This document shows, piece by piece, positions 5,050 to 10,892 of a stretch of DNA of 59,924 nt; within the stretch, counting starts at the first letter, position 1; the number at the start of each line of letters is the position of its first letter. Position numbers and translations under genes: made by a program. Origin of the DNA: Patescibacteria group bacterium. Its GTDB lineage: Bacteria > Patescibacteriota > Patescibacteriia > Veblenbacterales > UBA10138. The DNA lies in the NCBI GenBank assembly GCA_018817715.1, contig JAHITT010000004.1, positions 191,784-251,707 on the forward strand. Direction: 5' to 3'. The notes below the pieces were generated by a model that saw nothing but the letters and a program-made list of their open reading frames with translations, searched no databases and was not told where the DNA came from.

Positions 5050-5328
5050 TTACTTGCGCTTTAAACGATAAACTTTCAAAATTTCTTTTTGGGCCTTAGC
5101 CTGCTGACCCGACATCATTTGGTCTAAAGTGCAGGTGGCCAAATGATTTTCCAATAAAATATCTTCGATATTAGATAAAGCCTGCTTAACCGCCGAGGTC
5201 TGGGTGATAATATCTATACAGTATTTTTTCTGCTCCACCATATTTTGCAAACCCCTAACCTGACCCTCCACTATTTTTAAACGGCGGATTAACCGAGTTT
5301 GATGAGAAGAAGAATGATGATGTTTCAT
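5050..5328 (-). CDS. csoR: CsoR-family Cu(I)-sensing transcriptional repressor
   Basis: 92 aa with the x-C-H-C fingerprint (KKYC...ENHLATC). First gene of the copper operon. Confidence 0.9.
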   Translation of the reverse strand: MKHHHSSSHQTRLIRRLKIVEGQVRGLQNMVEQKKYCIDIITQTSAVKQALSNIEDILLENHLATCTLDQMMSGQQAKAQKEILKVYRLKRK

Positions 5329-5337
5329 AATGTTTTA

Positions 5338-5366
5338 ATTATATACCCCCCTGGGGGTATTGTCAA
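5338..5366 (-). promoter_or_regulatory. csoR-copA promoter with CsoR operator in the spacer
   Basis: Minus strand reads TTGACA (5366-5361), 17 nt, TATAAT (5343-5338). The spacer is the inverted repeat ATACCCCC-CT-GGGGGTAT (5343-5360). ATG lies 9 nt after the -10. Confidence 0.75.
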
Positions 5367-5436
5367 TTAATTAATCAAATCTGCCCCAAACTTTGGTCTA
5401 GATATAAAAAGACAAGACAAATAATAACAGTTATAA

Positions 5437-5465
5437 TTGACTAGCTGGCCTAACAATCATATACT
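5437..5465 (+). promoter_or_regulatory. promoter of tRNA-Ser
   Basis: TTGACT (5437-5442), 17 nt, TATACT (5460-5465), about 35 nt upstream of the tRNA. Confidence 0.55.
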
Positions 5466-5499
5466 TAGGTACGCTAAAATAGAGACAACTAAAACCTTT

Positions 5500-5588
5500 G
5501 GAGAGGTCGCATAGTGGTCTAGTGCGCTGGTCTCGAAAACCGGTATCCCCAAAAGGGATCGAGGGTTCGAATCCCTCCCTCTCCGCCA
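5500..5588 (+). tRNA. tRNA-Ser (anticodon CGA), CCA encoded
   Basis: Acceptor GGAGAGG/CCTCTCC, anticodon loop CTCGAAA, long variable arm, T-arm GAGGG-TTCGAAT-CCCTC, discriminator G plus CCA. Confidence 0.9.
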
Positions 5589-5618
5589 TCCTTCGCTAAA
5601 GCTACGGATTGGCAGGCC

Positions 5619-5939
5619 ATGTCTATGTACTATACTTATATATTATTAAGTTCAAAATCGCATATTTTTTATTTTGGTTCAACCAAAAATATTAAAGAAC
5701 GATTAAAACTACATAATACTGGACAAGTTTTATCAACTAAACCACATCTACCATGGAAGCTTGTATGGTACTGTGCTTTTGAAACAGAAAAACAAGCTAG
5801 AGATTTTGAACTTTACTTAAAATCGGGATCTGGTAAATCATTTGCTTATAAAAGGTTTGTTTCGGTAGCTTTAGCAAAGGATTTTAAGGAAGGGAGAAAA
5901 AGTAGTCCGAAGTCAACCCGAAGCAAAAGCGAAGGGTGA
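5619..5939 (+). CDS. GIY-YIG nuclease superfamily protein (YhbQ-like)
   Basis: YYTYILLS...IFYFGST..ERLKLHN motifs matching GIY-YIG. Small stand-alone domain directly downstream of tRNA-Ser. Confidence 0.75.
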   Translation: MSMYYTYILLSSKSHIFYFGSTKNIKERLKLHNTGQVLSTKPHLPWKLVWYCAFETEKQARDFELYLKSGSGKSFAYKRFVSVALAKDFKEGRKSSPKSTRSKSEG

Positions 5940-6061
5940 CGCAGGATACCTCCCGCCTCCGCCAGGAGAAGGCCGTTCATCCTTTATGGGTGGACGGCGT
6001 TCTTCTTGTTGAAGAAAGGAGGATTCGAAGGGTATAATAAGGGTTTTTGAAAAATAAAAAG

Positions 6062-6090
6062 CCGATTTCGTCAGGAAGTCGGTTTTTATT
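6062..6090. terminator. intrinsic terminator (A-tract/hairpin/T-tract, potentially bidirectional)
   Basis: CCGATTTC-GTCAG-GAAGTCGG stem-loop (8 bp including one G-U) flanked by AAAAATAAAAAG and TTTTTATT. Confidence 0.6.
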
Positions 6091-6110
6091 CTAATATAGA
6101 ATATGGCAAT

Positions 6111-6140
6111 TTGGAATAATACACAATGGAATATTATCAT
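6111..6140 (+). promoter_or_regulatory. candidate promoter and C-box repeats of the controller gene
   Basis: TTGGAA (6111-6116), 18 nt, TATCAT (6135-6140), 8 nt before the ATG. Direct repeats TGGAATAATA (6112-6121) and TGGAATATTA (6127-6136) overlap the -35 and -10. Confidence 0.4.
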
Positions 6141-6148
6141 ATACATAT

Positions 6149-6370
6149 ATGCCAAGAGCAATTTATCAAGATGACCACAAGAAAATCGTTGAACGCTTGA
6201 AACAAGCGCGTCTTGAGATTGGTCTTGGACAGGTTGAAGTTGCAGAAAAGCTCGGCAGAACTCAGTCGTATGTATCAAAGATTGAATCAGGGCAGAGGCG
6301 ATTTGATGTACTACAACTCAAAGAGTTTGCGAAACTTTATAAAAAATCCTTGGATTTTTTCGTGAAGTAA
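6149..6370 (+). CDS. XRE-family HTH protein, probable R-M controller (C) protein
   Basis: 73 aa with HTH_3-like GLGQVEVAEKLGRTQSYVSKIESGQR. Its stop codon lies 1 nt before the ATG of the downstream nuclease gene. Confidence 0.65.
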   Translation: MPRAIYQDDHKKIVERLKQARLEIGLGQVEVAEKLGRTQSYVSKIESGQRRFDVLQLKEFAKLYKKSLDFFVK

Positions 6371-6371
6371 C

Positions 6372-7454
6372 ATGAACCATAACCATAAAATTATAATTAC
6401 CAAACAAGATGTTATTCCGTACATCTATTTTGTGTGCTCAATGGCTCAGCGAGGCAGGATGTATGGAGGTCTTAGTGGTAAAAGTGATTATATTGGAGGA
6501 GTTTTTGATCGTTGGATTAACATAATTCCCGAAAGTGTAATTTTCAACAAATATTTTTTGCCCAAAATAGCAAATAATCTATCAGTCATTTCTGACTATT
6601 ATGAATATGACCCAAAGAAATCAGGTATAGCTCCTGATGTACTTGGCATAAGAGTTGGTGAAGATTCTAAGCCTTTTGTTGAATATGTAAATAAATGGAA
6701 AGCATTGAATGGTACTCCACAGATTGAGGTAAAATCCTTCAAAAAAGCACAGTATATGGTTAGTTTGAGAAACCAAGGGTATGACAATAAATACCTTGTC
6801 ATGGTTGAAACAAATCTAGACAGTGATTACTTATTGCCATTTTTTGAACAAACAGTCTTCAGTGAAGATGTCTATAACAAACTTAAAATGGACGATAGTA
6901 TTTTTATTAAATCTAATGCTAACAATGACTTATCTTCTGTTACAAAAATCAACCGAAAGAATACAGATTTAGGTTCACTAAAACTTATAACTGTTTGCTC
7001 AGCAAAAGATTTTATGTCTTTTTCAACTCTTTGCTCCTCAAACGAGAGTCCAATTTATGTAAAAGAAGTAAATGAAACTAGAACTGCAAAAACGACTACA
7101 ATTATAACGCCTTTATCTAACTATCTAACAAAAAATAATAACAATTTATATAGTTGGAATAATAATTTTTTAGACAAAAATAACAAACACAAAATACTAG
7201 ATGTTCATATTGACGACATTCAAAATATTGATTTTGTAAAAAATAGCAAAAGCTCTATTACTATAACAACAAAAGGTAAAGCGACTATGAATAATGTGGT
7301 TTTGGAAGCAAATAAAACCTATATTATTAAGTTCCAACTATTAGATCGTTCTTCAAACAATGGTGAGGAGTATTTTATGCATAAATCCGTTATTGATAGA
7401 ATACCTAGTAAAGAGGCCGTTATGTTAGACTCTATAAAGCAATATATAAAATAA
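6372..7454 (+). CDS. putative Type II restriction endonuclease (PD-(D/E)xK)
   Basis: P88-D89 ... E119-V120-K121 fits PD-x(n)-ExK. Translationally coupled to the C gene and convergent with the C5 methyltransferase. No recognisable family otherwise. Confidence 0.5.
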   Translation: MNHNHKIIITKQDVIPYIYFVCSMAQRGRMYGGLSGKSDYIGGVFDRWINIIPESVIFNKYFLPKIANNLSVISDYYEYDPKKSGIAPDVLGIRVGEDSKPFVEYVNKWKALNGTPQIEVKSFKKAQYMVSLRNQGYDNKYLVMVETNLDSDYLLPFFEQTVFSEDVYNKLKMDDSIFIKSNANNDLSSVTKINRKNTDLGSLKLITVCSAKDFMSFSTLCSSNESPIYVKEVNETRTAKTTTIITPLSNYLTKNNNNLYSWNNNFLDKNNKHKILDVHIDDIQNIDFVKNSKSSITITTKGKATMNNVVLEANKTYIIKFQLLDRSSNNGEEYFMHKSVIDRIPSKEAVMLDSIKQYIK

Positions 7455-9035
7455 TTATTGCATTGCTCTCATCATCTCTTTTGCCACAGCTTCAATAACA
7501 GGCACACTTACCGAATTTCCAGCTTGCTTGTATAGTGCCGAATCAGAAATTTTTGGAAGTTTGTAATTTTTTGAAAAACCTTGAATTCTAAAACACTCTA
7601 AAGGGGTTAATTTCCTTATACCTTTTTTATCTTTTATAATTGGCACATTATGTCCACCCATCCCCATATTGGCAGTTAATGTCGGACAAACACCACTCTT
7701 ATTTTCTCTTACATACTGTCTACGCCATTGATAAACTTTGCCAGATTCTTTTACTGATCCTTTTAATTTTTCAAATAAAGGTTTTCCATTGTAATAGTAT
7801 TTTTCTGGCACATTATCTTCGAGCAAATCAGTTATTCCTACACTTAATTTTACTGGGTTAGGAAACTCAAATCTGTCGTGATAAAGCTTGTTTTTAAATC
7901 CAACAATATAAATACGCTCACGGTTTTGCGGAACATTACCATATTCCATTGTGTTTAAAACTTTTGTCTTTACATAGTATCCAAGATCTCTCAATGTTTC
8001 TTCAATAATTCTAAATGTTTTTCCACCATCATGACTTTTTAAATTTTTTACATTTTCTAGCAAGAAACCCTCTGGTTTTCGTTCGTCAATAATTCGCGCA
8101 ACATCAAAAAACAGGTTTCCTCTTCCTTTTTCATCATTAAATCCTTGCCTATAGCCAGCAATTGAAAAAGCTTGGCAAGGAAAACCGCCTAAGAGAAAAT
8201 CAAATTCAGGAAGATCATCAATTCCTATTTTTCTGATATCTTCAACGACTAACTTTGAATCACGAAAATTCAAATCATAAGTATCACGGCACGAAGCCTC
8301 AAAGTCATTAGCAAAAACAGTCTTAAAACCTGCATTCTCAAAACCTATACGAATACCACCAACACCAGCAAAAAGATCTATCGTCCTAAACCCGTGTTTT
8401 GTCTTGTTCTTTTTAATTTCGTGTATTGGTTCATTTGTAGGATTGCTTATTACTTGGACAACAACACCTCTAACTTCAACATCAGTCCTGAATAAGGTTG
8501 GAATACTGGGATTTCTTGGAACAAGCTCAAAACCCTTTCCTTTCCTGTATAATCTTTTTAAAGTTGCCTCGTTGTCATCAATAATTGCGACAACAGTCTG
8601 TCCATTTTCCGCAACTGATTGATGTTTGATAACGACAATATCTCCATCAAATATTCCATCATCAATCATCGAATCCCCAACAACACAGAGAGCATAATAT
8701 CCTTTTGCAGTTTTGATTTGTGGATTTATAACAGAAACGAAACCGTCTCTCTCTTCTATTGCAGGCAATGGATATCCAGCTTTAATACTTCCGAGTATCG
8801 GAATCTCAATAACGGATTTAATTTCTTTTTTAGGAGTCAGGTTTCTTGCTGAATTATCTGATTTTGAAAGATACCCCTTTTCTCTTAGGGATTTGATATG
8901 CTCATGAATAGTAGAAACCGCTTTTAATTTCAGTTTTTTTCGTATTTCCTCAATGGTTGGAGCGATACCATTCTCTGATAGGTATGAGTTTATAAAATCA
9001 AAGACTTCTTTTTGCTTTTTCGTAAGATTCGACAT
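7455..9035 (-). CDS. LexA (winged-HTH plus S24 peptidase) fused to a C5 cytosine DNA methyltransferase
   Basis: LexA region, aa 1-199: LTKKQKEVFDFI..IEEIRKKL wHTH, Ala86-Gly87 cleavage site (IKAGYP), Ser122 (GDSM), Lys160 (ATLKRL). Methyltransferase (MTase) region, aa 216-526: motif I DLFAGVGG, motif IV GFPCQAFS (Cys287), ENV, QNRERIY, GNSVSVPV. Confidence 0.85.
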   Translation of the reverse strand: MSNLTKKQKEVFDFINSYLSENGIAPTIEEIRKKLKLKAVSTIHEHIKSLREKGYLSKSDNSARNLTPKKEIKSVIEIPILGSIKAGYPLPAIEERDGFVSVINPQIKTAKGYYALCVVGDSMIDDGIFDGDIVVIKHQSVAENGQTVVAIIDDNEATLKRLYRKGKGFELVPRNPSIPTLFRTDVEVRGVVVQVISNPTNEPIHEIKKNKTKHGFRTIDLFAGVGGIRIGFENAGFKTVFANDFEASCRDTYDLNFRDSKLVVEDIRKIGIDDLPEFDFLLGGFPCQAFSIAGYRQGFNDEKGRGNLFFDVARIIDERKPEGFLLENVKNLKSHDGGKTFRIIEETLRDLGYYVKTKVLNTMEYGNVPQNRERIYIVGFKNKLYHDRFEFPNPVKLSVGITDLLEDNVPEKYYYNGKPLFEKLKGSVKESGKVYQWRRQYVRENKSGVCPTLTANMGMGGHNVPIIKDKKGIRKLTPLECFRIQGFSKNYKLPKISDSALYKQAGNSVSVPVIEAVAKEMMRAMQ

Positions 9036-9119
9036 ATTGTTTTAAAAATCCATTTACGCTACAATTTTAGTATAACCGAATAAAAACCGAAAAGTAAAGC
9101 ATAGGTTATCCACAATCGT

Positions 9120-9881
9120 ATGGAAAATTTAAATACAAAATTTGAGATAAGTAAAAAACTTTCTGAAAAGATTAGTGAGTCACTTCCCTTTGTTATTAGT
9201 TCTCTTCAAAAAACTAAATTTCAATATGCTGGAAAAGCTCTAGTCTCTTTTATTTCTAAGAGTGGTTATTTACTAAATTCAATATTACTCTCTTGCAATA
9301 ATTCTGACATATATTCATCCTCAATCTTATTTCGGTCTCTTATTGAACATAATTTCAAATACTTATACATTTTTGTTAGGACTCTCAATGAAAATTCTGA
9401 CGATGTTGGTAAGGAGTATTACTGCTCGCTTAAAGGTTTTGAGGATCTAAAGTCTGTTCAAAAAATTCTTAATTACAATAAATTAACATTTCCAGAAAAG
9501 ACCCAGTGGAATACCAAAAGTAAAAATAATAAAAATTTGAGTGAAATTGGTAAAAAATTTGATATAGATAAGATATTTCAGTATCTAATCAATAACAATA
9601 ATCACGATAATAAAATTCTTGAAAAGTATAAAAAAGAGTATCTTTTAGAAAGATTAACTGAATATACAAACATGTCATCTAGTGTCCACGGAGGGCCTTT
9701 TGGAGAATTTGCGTTATTAGAAATCAAGAAAGATAAAAATAAATTTAGTAAAACTTTAAACAAGTTTATAGACGATTCATTAATGCTACATAAGAGTATG
9801 GTTGAAACAACATATTTATTTTCTTCTTTAATGGATTATGAAACTGATAAATTTTATCAAGAAATTCGTAATCTTAAATAA
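9120..9881 (+). CDS. hypothetical protein with a possible HEPN-like Rx4H motif
   Basis: All-helical, Asn/Lys-rich 253 aa. R72-SLIE-H77 fits the HEPN Rx4-6H signature. Divergent from the LexA-MTase gene. Motif alone is weak evidence. Confidence 0.3.
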   Translation: MENLNTKFEISKKLSEKISESLPFVISSLQKTKFQYAGKALVSFISKSGYLLNSILLSCNNSDIYSSSILFRSLIEHNFKYLYIFVRTLNENSDDVGKEYYCSLKGFEDLKSVQKILNYNKLTFPEKTQWNTKSKNNKNLSEIGKKFDIDKIFQYLINNNNHDNKILEKYKKEYLLERLTEYTNMSSSVHGGPFGEFALLEIKKDKNKFSKTLNKFIDDSLMLHKSMVETTYLFSSLMDYETDKFYQEIRNLK

Positions 9882-9884
9882 TAA

Positions 9885-10085
9885 TCTGGGAGTCCACTTT
9901 GTGCGTGCACTGGGCGGGTGGGGGCAAGCACATATAAACTTGTTGTGCCTAGCACAATCCGCTTTTTAGAGTTACCACAGGCTCAATCGAATCCATAGAG
10001 CGAATGCGAACGGCCTATGCGAGGCGCGAGTGTCATTCGTCAAAATCCTGCGGATTTTGCCCGAAATACATTCAAACTTCGCCAA
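9885..10085 (+). other. GC-rich, hairpin-rich non-coding segment (candidate ncRNA or element-end remnant)
   Basis: No ORF in the track. Much more GC-rich than its surroundings. Local hairpins TTGTGC-CTA-GCACAA, CGAATG...CATTCG, AAAATCC-TGC-GGATTTT. Followed by a terminator. Confidence 0.3.
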
Positions 10086-10087
10086 AA

Positions 10088-10118
10088 AACACCTACCTTT
10101 TACGGGTGTTTTTATTTT
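10088..10118 (+). terminator. intrinsic terminator
   Basis: AACACCT / GGGTGTT stem (7 bp, one G-U), 9-nt loop, then TTTATTTT. Confidence 0.5.
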
Positions 10119-10120
10119 AA

Positions 10121-10149
10121 TTGAATAAGGGTATCCCAAAAGGTATAAT
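10121..10149 (+). promoter_or_regulatory. promoter of the cofE-like gene
   Basis: TTGAAT, 17 nt, TATAAT, ending 11 nt before the ATG at 10161. Confidence 0.55.
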
Positions 10150-10160
10150 AAAAACTAATT

Positions 10161-10892
10161 ATGCTCATCAAACCCATCAAAACTCGTGTCTTTAAACCCA
10201 AAAACAACCTGCTTAAATTTATTAACCAACACGTCAAAAAACTAAAAAATGGCGACGTGCTAGTGATAACTTCCAAAATCGTAAGCCTGGCGCAAGGACG
10301 CGTTAAAAAAACAATCAATAATAAAACTCGGGAAAGGCTGATAAAACAAGAAAGCCAGTTTATAATGCGTGGGGTAAGAACCTGGTTAACTGTAAAAGAC
10401 GGCGTGGTAATGACTTCGGCTGGGGTAGATAGGTCTAATGGCAATGGCCAAATAATTCTGCTACCAAAAAATAGTTTTGCAGTGGCGCAAAAAATAAGAC
10501 TGGCTTTGTTAAAAAAATTCAAATTAAAAAATTTAGGCGTCTTAATTACCGACAGCCGGTCTTTACCGCTTCGGGCTGGTAGTTTGGCTGTGGCTATGGG
10601 CTATGCTGGTTTTAAAGGACTAGTGCCTAAAAAAGGCAGTTACGATATGTTTAAGCAGCCGCTTAAAACCACGCGCATTAATATTGGCGATAGCTTGGCC
10701 ACAGCGGCGGTTTTAGCTATGGGCGAAACCAATGAACAAACACCCTTAGCTATTGTAAACGGGGCGCCAATAATTTTTACTGACAAAAAAATAAACCGCC
10801 GTGAATTAATTATTAATCCCTTACACGACAACTTTAAACCGTTTTTTGATAAACTGTCCACCAGCCGGAAATTAAAAAAATTATTAAACTAA
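10161..10892 (+). CDS. F420-0:gamma-glutamyl ligase (CofE)-like family protein
   Basis: GDVLVITSKIVS, SAGVDRSN and ITDSRS..LRAG motifs typical of the CofE/FbiB N-terminal fold. Confidence 0.65.
   Translation: MLIKPIKTRVFKPKNNLLKFINQHVKKLKNGDVLVITSKIVSLAQGRVKKTINNKTRERLIKQESQFIMRGVRTWLTVKDGVVMTSAGVDRSNGNGQIILLPKNSFAVAQKIRLALLKKFKLKNLGVLITDSRSLPLRAGSLAVAMGYAGFKGLVPKKGSYDMFKQPLKTTRINIGDSLATAAVLAMGETNEQTPLAIVNGAPIIFTDKKINRRELIINPLHDNFKPFFDKLSTSRKLKKLLN

What the first reader, a model, noticed from the sequence alone, without database searches (positions are those of the whole stretch)
7455..9035. Complete self-cleavable LexA fused in frame to the R-M system's C5 cytosine methyltransferase
Residues 1-199 align along their length with LexA. 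Shared features are the wHTH, the Ala86-Gly87 scissile bond in IKAGYP, and the Ser122 (GDSM) and Lys160 (TLKRL) catalytic dyad. A 16-aa Lys-rich linker follows, then a full Dcm-type enzyme with DLFAGVGG, GFPCQ (Cys287), ENV, QNRERIY and GNSVSVPV. Short HTH extensions that autoregulate MTases are known (SsoII/EcoRII type). I know of no described R-M system whose MTase carries an entire RecA-responsive S24 autoprotease repressor. Inferred logic: DNA damage, including self-restriction breaks, would trigger cleavage. Cleavage would detach the DNA-binding domain, derepress the fusion's own promoter and possibly the divergent gene at 9120, and so couple modification capacity or defence output to the SOS signal.
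Basis: partly seen in the sequence, partly recalled or inferred. Interest (0 to 1): 0.85.

Follow-up and report, generated by a model that had tools for sequence, protein, structure and literature searches.

The report
LexA-fused methyltransferase of a restriction system
The protective DNA methyltransferase of a restriction-modification cassette, found in hundreds of Patescibacteria (CPR) species, carries a complete DNA-damage-sensing LexA repressor at its N-terminus, so it probably represses its own promoter and releases that repression when DNA is damaged.

Summary
ORF 7455-9035 (-) encodes 526 aa: a full LexA (above NCBI's LexA equivalog cut-off, with the Ala86-Gly87 site, Ser122 and Lys160), a variable 16-aa linker, and a complete C5 methyltransferase.

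It is not an assembly artefact. The same fusion occurs in at least 532 species-representative genomes, nearly all Patescibacteria. Every module is under strong purifying selection (dN/dS 0.03-0.08, dS > 1), and the cleavage and catalytic residues are invariant in 80-81 of 81 genes.

Its promoter is conserved with it. A direct repeat, TTCGG-N6-TTCGG, fills the 17-bp spacer between -35 and -10. It occurs once per locus and essentially nowhere else in about 1 Mb of flanking DNA. This fits self-repression, not a global SOS regulon, and some of these genomes also hold a separate LexA.

Best reading: an SsoII-like self-repressing methyltransferase whose repressor is a RecA-cleavable LexA, giving damage-induced extra modification. 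DNA binding and cleavage are inferred, not shown.

Control of the divergent gene at 9120 is not supported.

New points: eight unrelated restriction-enzyme families are swapped into the slot beside this constant methyltransferase, and a perfect DnaA-box 9-mer ends the cassette. I found no published description.

The parts
7455..9035 (-). Whole fusion gene, 526 aa (LexA - linker - C5 methyltransferase)
8844..9035 (-). LexA winged-helix DNA-binding domain, residues 1-64
   Evidence: Pfam PF01726, 7e-19, full profile. dN/dS 0.048.
8775..8780 (-). Codons for Ala86-Gly87, the predicted self-cleavage bond
   Evidence: Aligns with E. coli LexA Ala84-Gly85. Ala 81/81 and Gly 80/81 across loci.
8457..8801 (-). 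Peptidase S24 domain, residues 79-193, with Ser122 (8670-8672) and Lys160 (8556-8558)
   Evidence: Pfam PF00717, 1e-26. Ser and Lys are 81/81. dN/dS 0.060.
8391..8438 (-). Lys-rich linker, residues 200-215, the least conserved stretch
   Evidence: Conservation profile. dN/dS 0.148.
7470..8390 (-). C5 cytosine methyltransferase domain, residues 216-522, with catalytic Cys287 at 8175-8177
   Evidence: PF00145 3e-89 and TIGR00675 332 bits. M.HhaI aligns over 209-519. PC and ENV motifs are 81/81.
9076..9091 (-). Predicted operator: direct repeat TTCGG-N6-TTCGG (11-bp period) within the 17-bp promoter spacer
   Evidence: Near 2 bits per position in about 80 loci, and one copy per locus, about 56 nt before the ATG.
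9069..9097 (-). Predicted sigma-70-type promoter of the fusion: -35 at 9092-9097 (TTACTT here, TTGnCn in most loci) and -10 at 9069-9074 (TATACT here, TATAAT in most loci)
   Evidence: one search reports an alternative register, TTTACT with an 18-bp spacer. A consensus match conserved across loci. No transcript data.
9052..9064 (-). Conserved block TTGTAGCG(T/C)AAAT just after the -10, near the likely transcript start. Role unknown.
9106..9114 (-). TGTGGATAA, the reverse complement of the DnaA-box consensus TTATCCACA. Last conserved element of the cassette.
   Evidence: Exact in 51 of 79 loci and one mismatch in 13 more.
6372..7454 (+). Candidate restriction endonuclease (360 aa, no family match), convergent with the fusion, stop codons abutting
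   Evidence: no hits. Searches show the same slot holds Bsp6I-like, NgoFVII-like and PD-(D/E)XK enzymes in other loci.
6149..6370 (+). C (controller) protein, 73 aa, HTH_3
   Evidence: Pfam. PADLOC 'Control_protein'. Conserved beside several restriction-enzyme families.
6103..6136 (+). Conserved C-box-like element ATGGCAATTTGGAATAATACACAATGGAATATTAT (two TGGAATA repeats, at 6112-6118 and 6127-6133)

Best explanation
This is a Type II restriction-modification cassette. A C-protein gene and a restriction gene run on the + strand, and they converge on a methyltransferase gene on the - strand. The methyltransferase is made only as a fusion to a complete LexA. Shown: both modules are intact, strongly conserved and always found together, and the gene carries its own conserved promoter, in which a TTCGG-N6-TTCGG direct repeat occupies the spacer between -35 and -10. 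Inferred step 1: the LexA part dimerises and binds that repeat, so the methyltransferase represses its own transcription, as M.SsoII, M.Ecl18kI and M.EcoRII do with a short fused helix-turn-helix. Inferred step 2: RecA filaments on single-stranded DNA, formed after DNA damage or after the cell's own restriction enzyme cuts under-methylated DNA, stimulate self-cleavage at Ala86-Gly87. The DNA-binding domain is released, the promoter is derepressed, and more enzyme is made. The S24-methyltransferase fragment would have to stay active, because the gene has no internal start that could yield a free methyltransferase. Inferred step 3: the two genes converge with abutting stop codons and no room for a terminator, so stronger methyltransferase transcription would also run antisense into the restriction gene. 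The net effect would be damage-induced 'restriction alleviation' for a Type II system. The target site is probably GCNGC.
For: Domain integrity. Not an artefact, and widespread: (one tight family, with a single full-length fused representative at 50% clustering). Selection: dN/dS is 0.048 (winged helix), 0.079 (hinge), 0.060 (S24) and 0.031 (methyltransferase) with dS > 1. Ala86, Ser122 and Lys160 are 81/81 and Gly87 is 80/81. Operator: the promoter block is conserved in about 80 loci. The repeat occurs once per locus at about -56 and almost never elsewhere in about 1 Mb of flanks, and the few extra hits lie inside ORFs or terminator hairpins. The repeat is present whether or not a C gene is present and whichever restriction enzyme is present, so the fusion is the only DNA-binding protein that always accompanies it. 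Direct-repeat LexA boxes with the same 11-bp period are documented (GTTC-N7-GTTC in Alphaproteobacteria; PMC8565304; PMC7739468). Fused repressor domains on C5 methyltransferases are an established way of regulating R-M systems (PMC3978073 and PMC2760811; PMC12707154). Self-restriction induces SOS (PMC3874152). Convergence: 76 of 78 loci are convergent and the gap is 9 bp or less in 72 of 78. GCNGC: partner enzymes include Bsp6I-like and NgoFVII-like families, the target-recognition region is the most conserved part of the protein, and GCNGC is depleted in cassettes (obs/exp 0.43) and in flanks (0.60) while GCGC is not.
Against: No experiment or transcript data supports binding, cleavage or derepression. 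The link between the LexA domain and the TTCGG repeat is only an association. Both are almost invariant, so there is no covariation to exploit. The conserved TGTGGATAA box or the +1 block could be the real operator. In E. coli the LexA fragments are degraded after cleavage (my own knowledge), so cleavage could lower methyltransferase levels rather than raise them. More modification during phage infection would weaken defence. GCNGC is not depleted in this window as a whole (z = +1.6). GGNCC, CCNGG and GGCC are as depleted as GCNGC in the cassettes. The AlphaFold2 model was too poor to add anything.
Confidence: 0.55

Rival explanations
1. The fused LexA is the cell's master SOS repressor, which happens to be joined to a methyltransferase and controls a genome-wide damage regulon.
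For: The module scores higher against the LexA equivalog model (172 bits) than the standalone LexAs found in related genomes (117-142 bits). NCBI names many members 'transcriptional repressor LexA'.
Against: The operator-like repeat occurs only in front of the fusion itself, across about 1 Mb of flanks plus the 60-kb window. Three of 80 loci hold a separate LexA that passes the equivalog cut-off within 10 kb, about what is expected if most of these roughly 0.8-Mb genomes have one. The gene sits in different genomic neighbourhoods, always with a restriction gene.
Confidence: 0.08
2. Damage-triggered suicide. Cleavage marks the methyltransferase fragment for proteolysis, modification falls while the restriction enzyme persists, and the damaged or infected cell is killed (abortive-infection or addiction logic).
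For: In E. coli both LexA fragments are degraded after cleavage (my own knowledge, not tested here). All methyltransferase activity depends on the fusion, because there is no internal start. R-M systems act as addiction modules whose imbalance kills the cell (PMC3874152).
Against: Cleavage would also derepress transcription, which works against loss of enzyme. Killing the host at every bout of DNA damage is hard to reconcile with the wide distribution and strong purifying selection of the gene (at least 532 matches among species-representative genomes, dS > 1).
Confidence: 0.15
3. The LexA module serves only as a dimerising DNA-binding domain for steady self-repression, and self-cleavage plays no regulatory part.
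For: Simple self-repression by a fused domain is enough in the SsoII, Ecl18kI and EcoRII systems. Nothing computed here shows cleavage.
Against: Ala-Gly, Ser and Lys are invariant despite saturated synonymous divergence. The hinge that carries the cleavage loop is under purifying selection (dN/dS 0.079). A plain helix-turn-helix of about 70 aa would do the job more cheaply in these very small genomes.
Confidence: 0.17
4. The fusion is an assembly or gene-calling artefact that joins separate lexA and dcm genes.
For: None found.
Against: The same uninterrupted ORF appears in hundreds of independent assemblies from NCBI, JGI, ENA and Logan. The linker is variable but always in frame.
Confidence: 0.01

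Closest known systems
M.SsoII / M.Ecl18kI / M.EcoRII-type dual-function C5 methyltransferases (fused repressor domain)
   Same: A C5 methyltransferase carries an N-terminal DNA-binding domain, joined by a flexible linker, that binds an operator at its own promoter and represses it (PMC3978073, PMC2760811, PMC12707154).
   Different: In those enzymes the extension is about 70 aa, a plain helix-turn-helix with no signal-sensing part. In SsoII and Ecl18kI the R and M genes are divergent and share the operator. Here the extension is a whole 199-aa LexA with an S24 self-cleaving domain, and R is convergent and, in the window and many loci, has its own C protein.
LexA (TIGR00498), the SOS repressor
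   Same: Full-length match above the equivalog cut-off. It has the winged helix, the Ala-Gly site and the Ser/Lys dyad. It probably binds a site overlapping its own promoter. A direct-repeat operator with an 11-bp period resembles the alphaproteobacterial GTTC-N7-GTTC box.
   Different: It is covalently joined to an enzyme. No regulon was detected beyond its own gene. It lies in a mobile R-M cassette. Separate LexA genes coexist with it in at least some hosts.
C-protein-controlled convergent Type II R-M systems (Esp1396I-like layout; my own knowledge)
   Same: A C-R operon with a C-box converges on a separately promoted M gene.
   Different: In Esp1396I the C protein also represses the M promoter. 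Here the M promoter carries no C-box and is conserved in loci that lack a C gene.
Damage-induced restriction alleviation of Type I systems (ClpXP degradation of HsdR)
   Same: The proposed outcome is the same: after DNA damage the balance shifts from restriction towards protection (PMC12707154).
   Different: That mechanism is host-controlled proteolysis of the restriction subunit. Here it would be RecA-stimulated self-cleavage of a repressor built into the methyltransferase, and it is an inference.
Phage CI-type S24 repressors
   Same: A mobile element uses a RecA-cleavable S24 repressor to sense host DNA damage.
   Different: The N-terminal domain here is the LexA winged helix, not a CI-type helix-turn-helix. 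No fused copy was found in IMG/VR viral contigs.

Membership tests
LexA / S24 self-cleaving repressor (TIGR00498) | N-terminal LexA winged-helix DNA-binding domain | tested here: met
   PF01726 covers residues 1-64, full profile, 7e-19.
LexA / S24 self-cleaving repressor (TIGR00498) | Whole-protein score above the curated equivalog cut-off | tested here: met
   172.1 bits against a cut-off of 110.95, residues 1-198.
LexA / S24 self-cleaving repressor (TIGR00498) | Ala-Gly cleavage bond and Ser/Lys catalytic dyad in register | tested here: met
   Aligned with E. coli Ala84-Gly85, Ser119 and Lys156. Invariant in 80-81 of 81 genes.
LexA / S24 self-cleaving repressor (TIGR00498) | RecA-stimulated or alkaline self-cleavage | not testable with these tools
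   Needs purified protein.
LexA / S24 self-cleaving repressor (TIGR00498) | Binds an operator in its own promoter | tested here: inconclusive
   A conserved TTCGG-N6-TTCGG lies between -35 and -10. Binding has not been shown.
LexA / S24 self-cleaving repressor (TIGR00498) | Controls a multi-gene SOS regulon | tested here: not met
   No further promoter-located operator copies in the window or in about 1 Mb of flanks. Whole genomes could not be scanned.
C5 cytosine DNA methyltransferase (PF00145 / TIGR00675) | Motifs I (FxGxG), IV (PCQ), VI (ENV), VIII (QxRxR) and X (GNSV), plus a target-recognition region | tested here: met
   DLFAGVGG, GFPCQ, ENV, QNRERIY and GNSVSVPV are present. PF00145 matches 1-323 of 324 profile positions. 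M.HhaI aligns over 209-519. The PC and ENV motifs are invariant.
C5 cytosine DNA methyltransferase (PF00145 / TIGR00675) | 5mC formation at a defined site | not testable with these tools
   GCNGC is inferred from partner enzymes and site depletion.
SsoII-type dual-function methyltransferase-repressor | DNA-binding domain fused N-terminally to a C5 methyltransferase through a flexible linker | tested here: met
SsoII-type dual-function methyltransferase-repressor | Short (about 70 aa) helix-turn-helix extension homologous to the SsoII N-terminal region | tested here: not met
   The extension is a 199-aa LexA (winged helix plus S24).
SsoII-type dual-function methyltransferase-repressor | Operator shared with a divergent restriction gene | tested here: not met
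   R is convergent in 76 of 78 loci. The divergent neighbour is not conserved.
Type II R-M system with C protein | A restriction endonuclease adjacent to the methyltransferase | tested here: inconclusive
   The window's 360-aa ORF matches no family. The same slot holds RE_Bsp6I, RE_NgoFVII_C, PDDEXK_5 and PADLOC REase_II proteins in other loci.
Type II R-M system with C protein | Small HTH_3 controller protein with a repeated C-box upstream | tested here: met
   HTH_3 3.5e-12. PADLOC Control_protein. The TGGAATA repeats are conserved across loci.

The most novel reading that the evidence does not exclude
A mobile Type II restriction-modification cassette has built the cell's DNA-damage sensor into its own methyltransferase. 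RecA-triggered self-cleavage of the fused LexA derepresses modification and, through convergent transcription, dampens restriction. The system thereby senses its own autoimmune cuts and corrects them. The constant LexA-methyltransferase, with or without the C gene, also serves as a docking platform into which unrelated isoschizomeric restriction enzymes are repeatedly swapped.
Probability: 0.4. Interest if true: 0.85.

Novelty: new variant of a known kind. Interest (0 to 1): 0.72.

Why it matters
R-M systems must balance killing of invaders against cutting their own genome. The known controls are C proteins, short repressor domains on methyltransferases, antisense RNA, and, for Type I systems only, damage-induced proteolytic restriction alleviation. 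A methyltransferase with a complete RecA-responsive LexA would be a direct, built-in link between the SOS signal and a Type II system. It would show how selfish defence cassettes limit autoimmunity. The family is abundant in Patescibacteria, which have tiny genomes and few regulators and cannot be cultured alone, so it may be a major part of their DNA-damage and defence biology. It also offers a compact, testable module (operator plus cleavable repressor-enzyme fusion) that could be studied in E. coli. The swapping of eight restriction-enzyme families next to one methyltransferase gives an unusually clear natural example of modular R-M evolution, and a way to discover new isoschizomer families, including the window's unclassified 360-aa protein.

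Tried and rejected
1. Assembly artefact: rejected.
2. Global SOS regulator: I searched the window and all fetched loci for more TTCGG-N6-TTCGG sites. Only sporadic hits turned up, inside ORFs or terminator hairpins. The exact second copy in the window (5907-5922, -) lies in the 3' coding end of a GIY-YIG ORF, is not conserved elsewhere, and has a chance expectation of about 0.04, so I treat it as chance.
3. LexA operator at the C/R promoter: the window has 'TCGGTTTTTATTC' at 6081-6093, resembling the operator, but other loci do not conserve it. Rejected.
4. Phage carriage: IMG/VR holds only methyltransferase-only relatives.
5. Origin of the fusion: the nearest unfused methyltransferase (P0123, 59% identity) sits beside a Vsr gene with no LexA nearby, which is uninformative.
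6. AlphaFold2 on a 32-sequence alignment gave mean pLDDT 60, with the LexA part below 50, because the alignment lacks diversity. I did not use the model and ran no fold search.
7. Rfam scan of 5300-10200 found only the tRNA above its gathering score, plus two sub-threshold matches overlapping it.
8. Literature: seven full-text searches and four targeted reads found no description of a LexA-methyltransferase fusion (reads 45, 56, 60). The one paper most likely to have seen these genes (Sanchez-Osuna, Barbe and Erill 2017, Environ Microbiol 19:3465, on the SOS network in Patescibacteria) is not held. It is cited elsewhere as reporting a direct-repeat LexA motif, so prior notice of the motif or the fusion cannot be excluded.
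9. Methylation site in the promoter: there is no GCNGC anywhere in 5900-9200, so methylation-sensitive self-regulation of the EcoRII kind is unlikely.
Full report
**1. The observation**

The ORF at 7455-9035 (minus strand) is uninterrupted and encodes 526 aa.
- Pfam places LexA_DNA_bind on residues 1-64, Peptidase_S24 on 79-193 and DNA_methylase on 216-522. Each match covers its whole profile.
- NCBIfam's LexA equivalog model scores 172.1 bits over residues 1-198, against a cut-off of 110.95. The dcm model scores 332 bits.
- Residues 2-198 pair with residues 2-198 of E. coli LexA. E. coli Ala84-Gly85, Ser119 and Lys156 fall on Ala86-Gly87, Ser122 and Lys160.
- M.HhaI is the closest solved methyltransferase, aligned over 209-519 including the target-recognition region.

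**2. Not an artefact, and very common**

- The large protein database holds at least 120 clusters at 77-94% identity with the same three domains. They come from NCBI, JGI, ENA and Logan assemblies. NCBI names them 'transcriptional repressor LexA' and JGI names them 'DNA (cytosine-5)-methyltransferase 1'.
Of these, 532 encode a relative of the query. All 80 loci kept hold the fusion at 67-97% identity, 78 at essentially full length and two cut short by a contig end.
- By record title most of the 80 are Patescibacteria lineages: Paceibacteria, Nomura-, Giovannoni-, Vogel-, Taylor-, Zambryskii-, Staskawicz-, Falkow-, Uhr-, Moran- and Shapirobacteria, plus many records labelled 'uncultured Candidatus Saccharibacteria'. 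Three carry non-Patescibacteria labels.
- At 50% clustering there is one full-length fused representative (64% identity). Every other strong hit is a plain methyltransferase. The fusion is therefore a single tight family.
- IMG/VR viral contigs hold only unfused relatives.

**3. Selection**

- Across 81 genes, Ala86, Ser122, Lys160, the catalytic Pro-Cys and the ENV motif are invariant. Gly87 is 80/81.
- For 145 gene pairs of 85-95% protein identity, synonymous divergence is near saturation (median dS 1.0-1.5).
- dN/dS is 0.048 for the winged helix, 0.079 for the hinge, 0.060 for the S24 domain, 0.148 for the linker and 0.031 for the methyltransferase.
- The high protein identity therefore reflects strong constraint on every module, not recent spread alone.
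- The target-recognition region is the most conserved part of the protein (0.90-0.97 column identity). That implies one specificity for the whole family.

**4. The surroundings**

- The window holds a 73-aa HTH_3 protein (6149-6370) and a 360-aa ORF (6372-7454) on the + strand. They converge on the fusion, and the two stop codons abut.
- In 76 of 78 loci the downstream gene is convergent. The gap is 9 bp or less in 72 of 78, which leaves no room for a terminator.
- That downstream gene falls into eight unrelated families:
  - family 0: Bsp6I-like, 26 loci;
  - family 1: the window's type, 16 loci;
  - family 2: carries an NgoFVII C-terminal domain, 10 loci;
  - family 3: a small PD-(D/E)XK protein, 9 loci;
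  - families 4-7: 6, 5, 4 and 3 loci. Families 5 and 6 match a PADLOC Type II REase model. Families 4 and 7 match nothing.
- The restriction-enzyme family is uncoupled from the methyltransferase tree. The nearest methyltransferase neighbour shares the family in only 31 of 78 cases. Methyltransferases 96.8% identical sit beside different families.
- At the DNA level the window's homology to other loci has sharp edges, at 6093/6101-6370 (C block) and 7452-9114 (M block). Loci that keep both blocks have a different gene between them.
- Bsp6I cuts GCNGC and NgoFVII cuts GCSGC (my own knowledge of REBASE and Pfam).
- GCNGC is absent from 5900-9200 in the window. Its observed/expected ratio is 0.43 in 78 cassettes and 0.60 in 0.94 Mb of flanks. 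GCGC is not depleted: 0.87 and 1.03.
- GCNGC is therefore the likely target. However, GGNCC, CCNGG and GGCC are equally depleted in the cassettes, and the window as a whole shows no GCNGC avoidance.

**5. The promoter and the likely operator**

- About 85 nt upstream of the ATG are conserved in almost every locus. The order is: TGTGGATAAC, a few bases, GCTTTG containing a -35 of form TTGnCn, TTTCGG-N6-TTCGG, then TATAAT directly after the second repeat, five bases, and TGTAGCGCAAAT.
- The two TTCGG units are 11 bp apart. They occupy the 17-bp spacer, touching both hexamers, so a protein bound there would exclude RNA polymerase.
- In the window the elements lie at 9076-9091 (repeat), 9092-9097 (-35) and 9069-9074 (-10).
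- The repeat occurs once per locus, about 56 nt before the ATG. It is present whatever the restriction enzyme, and with or without a C gene. The fusion is thus the only DNA-binding protein that always accompanies it.
- Extra matches in about 1 Mb of flanks lie inside ORFs or terminator hairpins.
- LexA proteins that bind direct repeats with this period are documented: GTTC-N7-GTTC in Alphaproteobacteria (PMC8565304). Direct-repeat recognition has arisen independently several times (PMC7739468).
- Many loci here read TTTC-N7-GTTC across the repeat. That is a resemblance, not a test.

**6. Is it the cell's own LexA?**

Probably not.
- Three of 80 loci carry a second, standalone LexA within 10 kb. 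These are 30-33% identical to the fused module and pass the equivalog cut-off at 142, 135 and 117 bits.
- Roughly 1 Mb of flanks was sampled from genomes of about 0.8 Mb. One randomly placed lexA per genome would give about one such case. The count therefore fits most hosts having their own LexA. This is an inference.
- The cassette lies in different neighbourhoods. It often lies beside tRNA genes of varied identity.

**7. Most likely mechanism**

- Shown: an intact, constrained LexA-methyltransferase fusion; a co-inherited promoter with a repeat in the spacer; a convergent restriction gene with no intergenic terminator.
- Inferred:
  - the LexA dimer binds the repeat and represses its own gene, as the short fused domains of M.SsoII, M.Ecl18kI and M.EcoRII do (PMC3978073, PMC2760811, PMC12707154);
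  - RecA filaments form after DNA damage, including the SOS-inducing breaks caused by unbalanced R-M activity (PMC3874152), and stimulate cleavage at Ala86-Gly87;
  - the freed promoter then makes more enzyme and sends antisense transcription into the restriction gene.
- The outcome would be a Type II counterpart of damage-induced restriction alleviation. That is known for Type I systems, where it works through ClpXP (PMC12707154).
- There is no internal start codon near the linker. The S24-methyltransferase fragment must therefore stay active for this to be safe for the cell.
- I put about 0.55 on the whole chain. Real functional fusion: about 0.95. Self-repression at the repeat: about 0.65. 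RecA-dependent derepression: about 0.5.

**8. Rivals**

- Global SOS regulator: 0.08.
- Damage-triggered suicide through degradation of the cleaved enzyme: 0.15.
- Self-repression only, with cleavage irrelevant: 0.17.
- Artefact: 0.01.
That neighbour (DUF5677 here) differs in other loci, and homology ends at 9114. An incidental effect in this one genome cannot be excluded, because the gene's start lies only 6 nt beyond the cassette.

**9. Novelty**

- Fused repressor domains on C5 methyltransferases are known, and so is LexA. The combination, a complete signal-responsive S24 repressor on an R-M methyltransferase, appears in none of the reviews or papers I could search.
- That includes a 2025 review with a dedicated section on dual-function methyltransferase repressors, which never mentions LexA.
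- The sequences are public and auto-annotated. One relevant paper (Sanchez-Osuna et al. 2017) could not be read.
- I rate it a new variant of a known kind, with interest 0.72.

Noticed in passing
window 6372-7454 (+) and the same slot in L001-L083: The restriction-enzyme gene next to the constant LexA-methyltransferase belongs to eight unrelated families and is uncoupled from the methyltransferase phylogeny. Methyltransferases 96.8% identical have different partners. DNA homology breaks sharply at 6370 and 7452, so the gene is swapped as a cassette between the conserved C and M flanks.
   Followed up: partly
window 9106-9114 (-): A perfect DnaA-box 9-mer (TGTGGATAA, reverse complement of TTATCCACA) lies just upstream of the -35 of the fusion's promoter. 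It is exact in 51 of 79 loci, has one mismatch in 13 more, and is the last conserved element of the cassette. It is the only copy in the 60-kb window. It might couple methyltransferase expression to replication, or it might be a recombination end. Unexplained.
   Followed up: partly
window 7452-7457 and the R/M junction in all loci: The stop codons of the convergent R and M genes abut (TAA|TTA). The gap is 0 bp in 28 of 78 loci, the genes overlap by 4 bp in 11, and the gap is 9 bp or less in 72 of 78, regardless of restriction-enzyme family. Each transcript must therefore run antisense into the other gene.
   Followed up: partly
window 6103-6136 (+): A C-box-like element with two TGGAATA repeats 15 bp apart lies upstream of the 73-aa HTH_3 gene. 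Near-identical copies are found upstream of C genes paired with four different restriction-enzyme families.
   Followed up: partly
window 5500-5588 (tRNA-Ser) and loci L001, L006, L010, L013, L016, L024-L026, L028, L032, L037, L046, L047, L054, L061: A tRNA gene of varying identity lies within 2 kb beyond the R/C side of the cassette in about 16 of 61 loci, roughly three times the background tRNA density. This suggests insertion next to tRNA genes. No integrase is seen in the window.
   Followed up: partly
window 5907-5933 (-): Three TTCG(G/C) units with an 11-bp period, including an exact TTCGG-N6-TTCGG, lie inside the 3' end of the GIY-YIG ORF (5619-5939). This is 3 kb from the real operator, on the same strand. 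It is not conserved in other loci and is probably chance, at an expectation of about 0.04.
   Followed up: partly
window 5940-6020 (+): A G+C-rich stretch with a strong hairpin (5972-5998, 11 pairs) lies between the GIY-YIG ORF and the C promoter. Several other loci have G-rich GGGGTTTGGGGAGGAA-like sequence just outside the C-box. It could be a terminator or a remnant of the cassette end.
   Followed up: no
L028 3287-3994, L070 6006-6584, L077 7432-8076 (all -): Standalone LexA genes pass the equivalog cut-off within 10 kb of the fusion. They score lower against the LexA model than the fused module does (117-142 against 172 bits).
   Followed up: partly
L030 and L042 (same contig CAIRHC010000009.1): One Vogelbacteria contig carries two copies of the fusion with different restriction-enzyme partners (family 0 and family 6).
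   Followed up: no
L075 and L080, upstream of the fusion: In these two loci the TTCGG-type repeats lie in inverted orientation relative to the gene, together with the TGTGGATAA box in L075. This hints at an inverted or rearranged promoter segment.
   Followed up: no
window 9120-9881 (+): A DUF5677 gene starts 6 nt beyond the cassette boundary, so its promoter must overlap the cassette's upstream region. This neighbour is specific to this genome and its closest relatives.
   Followed up: no
L004 (JBGAFY010000168.1), L060, L066: Short contigs carrying the fusion are binned in MAGs labelled Rhabdochlamydiaceae, Bdellovibrionales and Gammaproteobacteria. These are probably binning errors rather than true hosts.
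   Followed up: no
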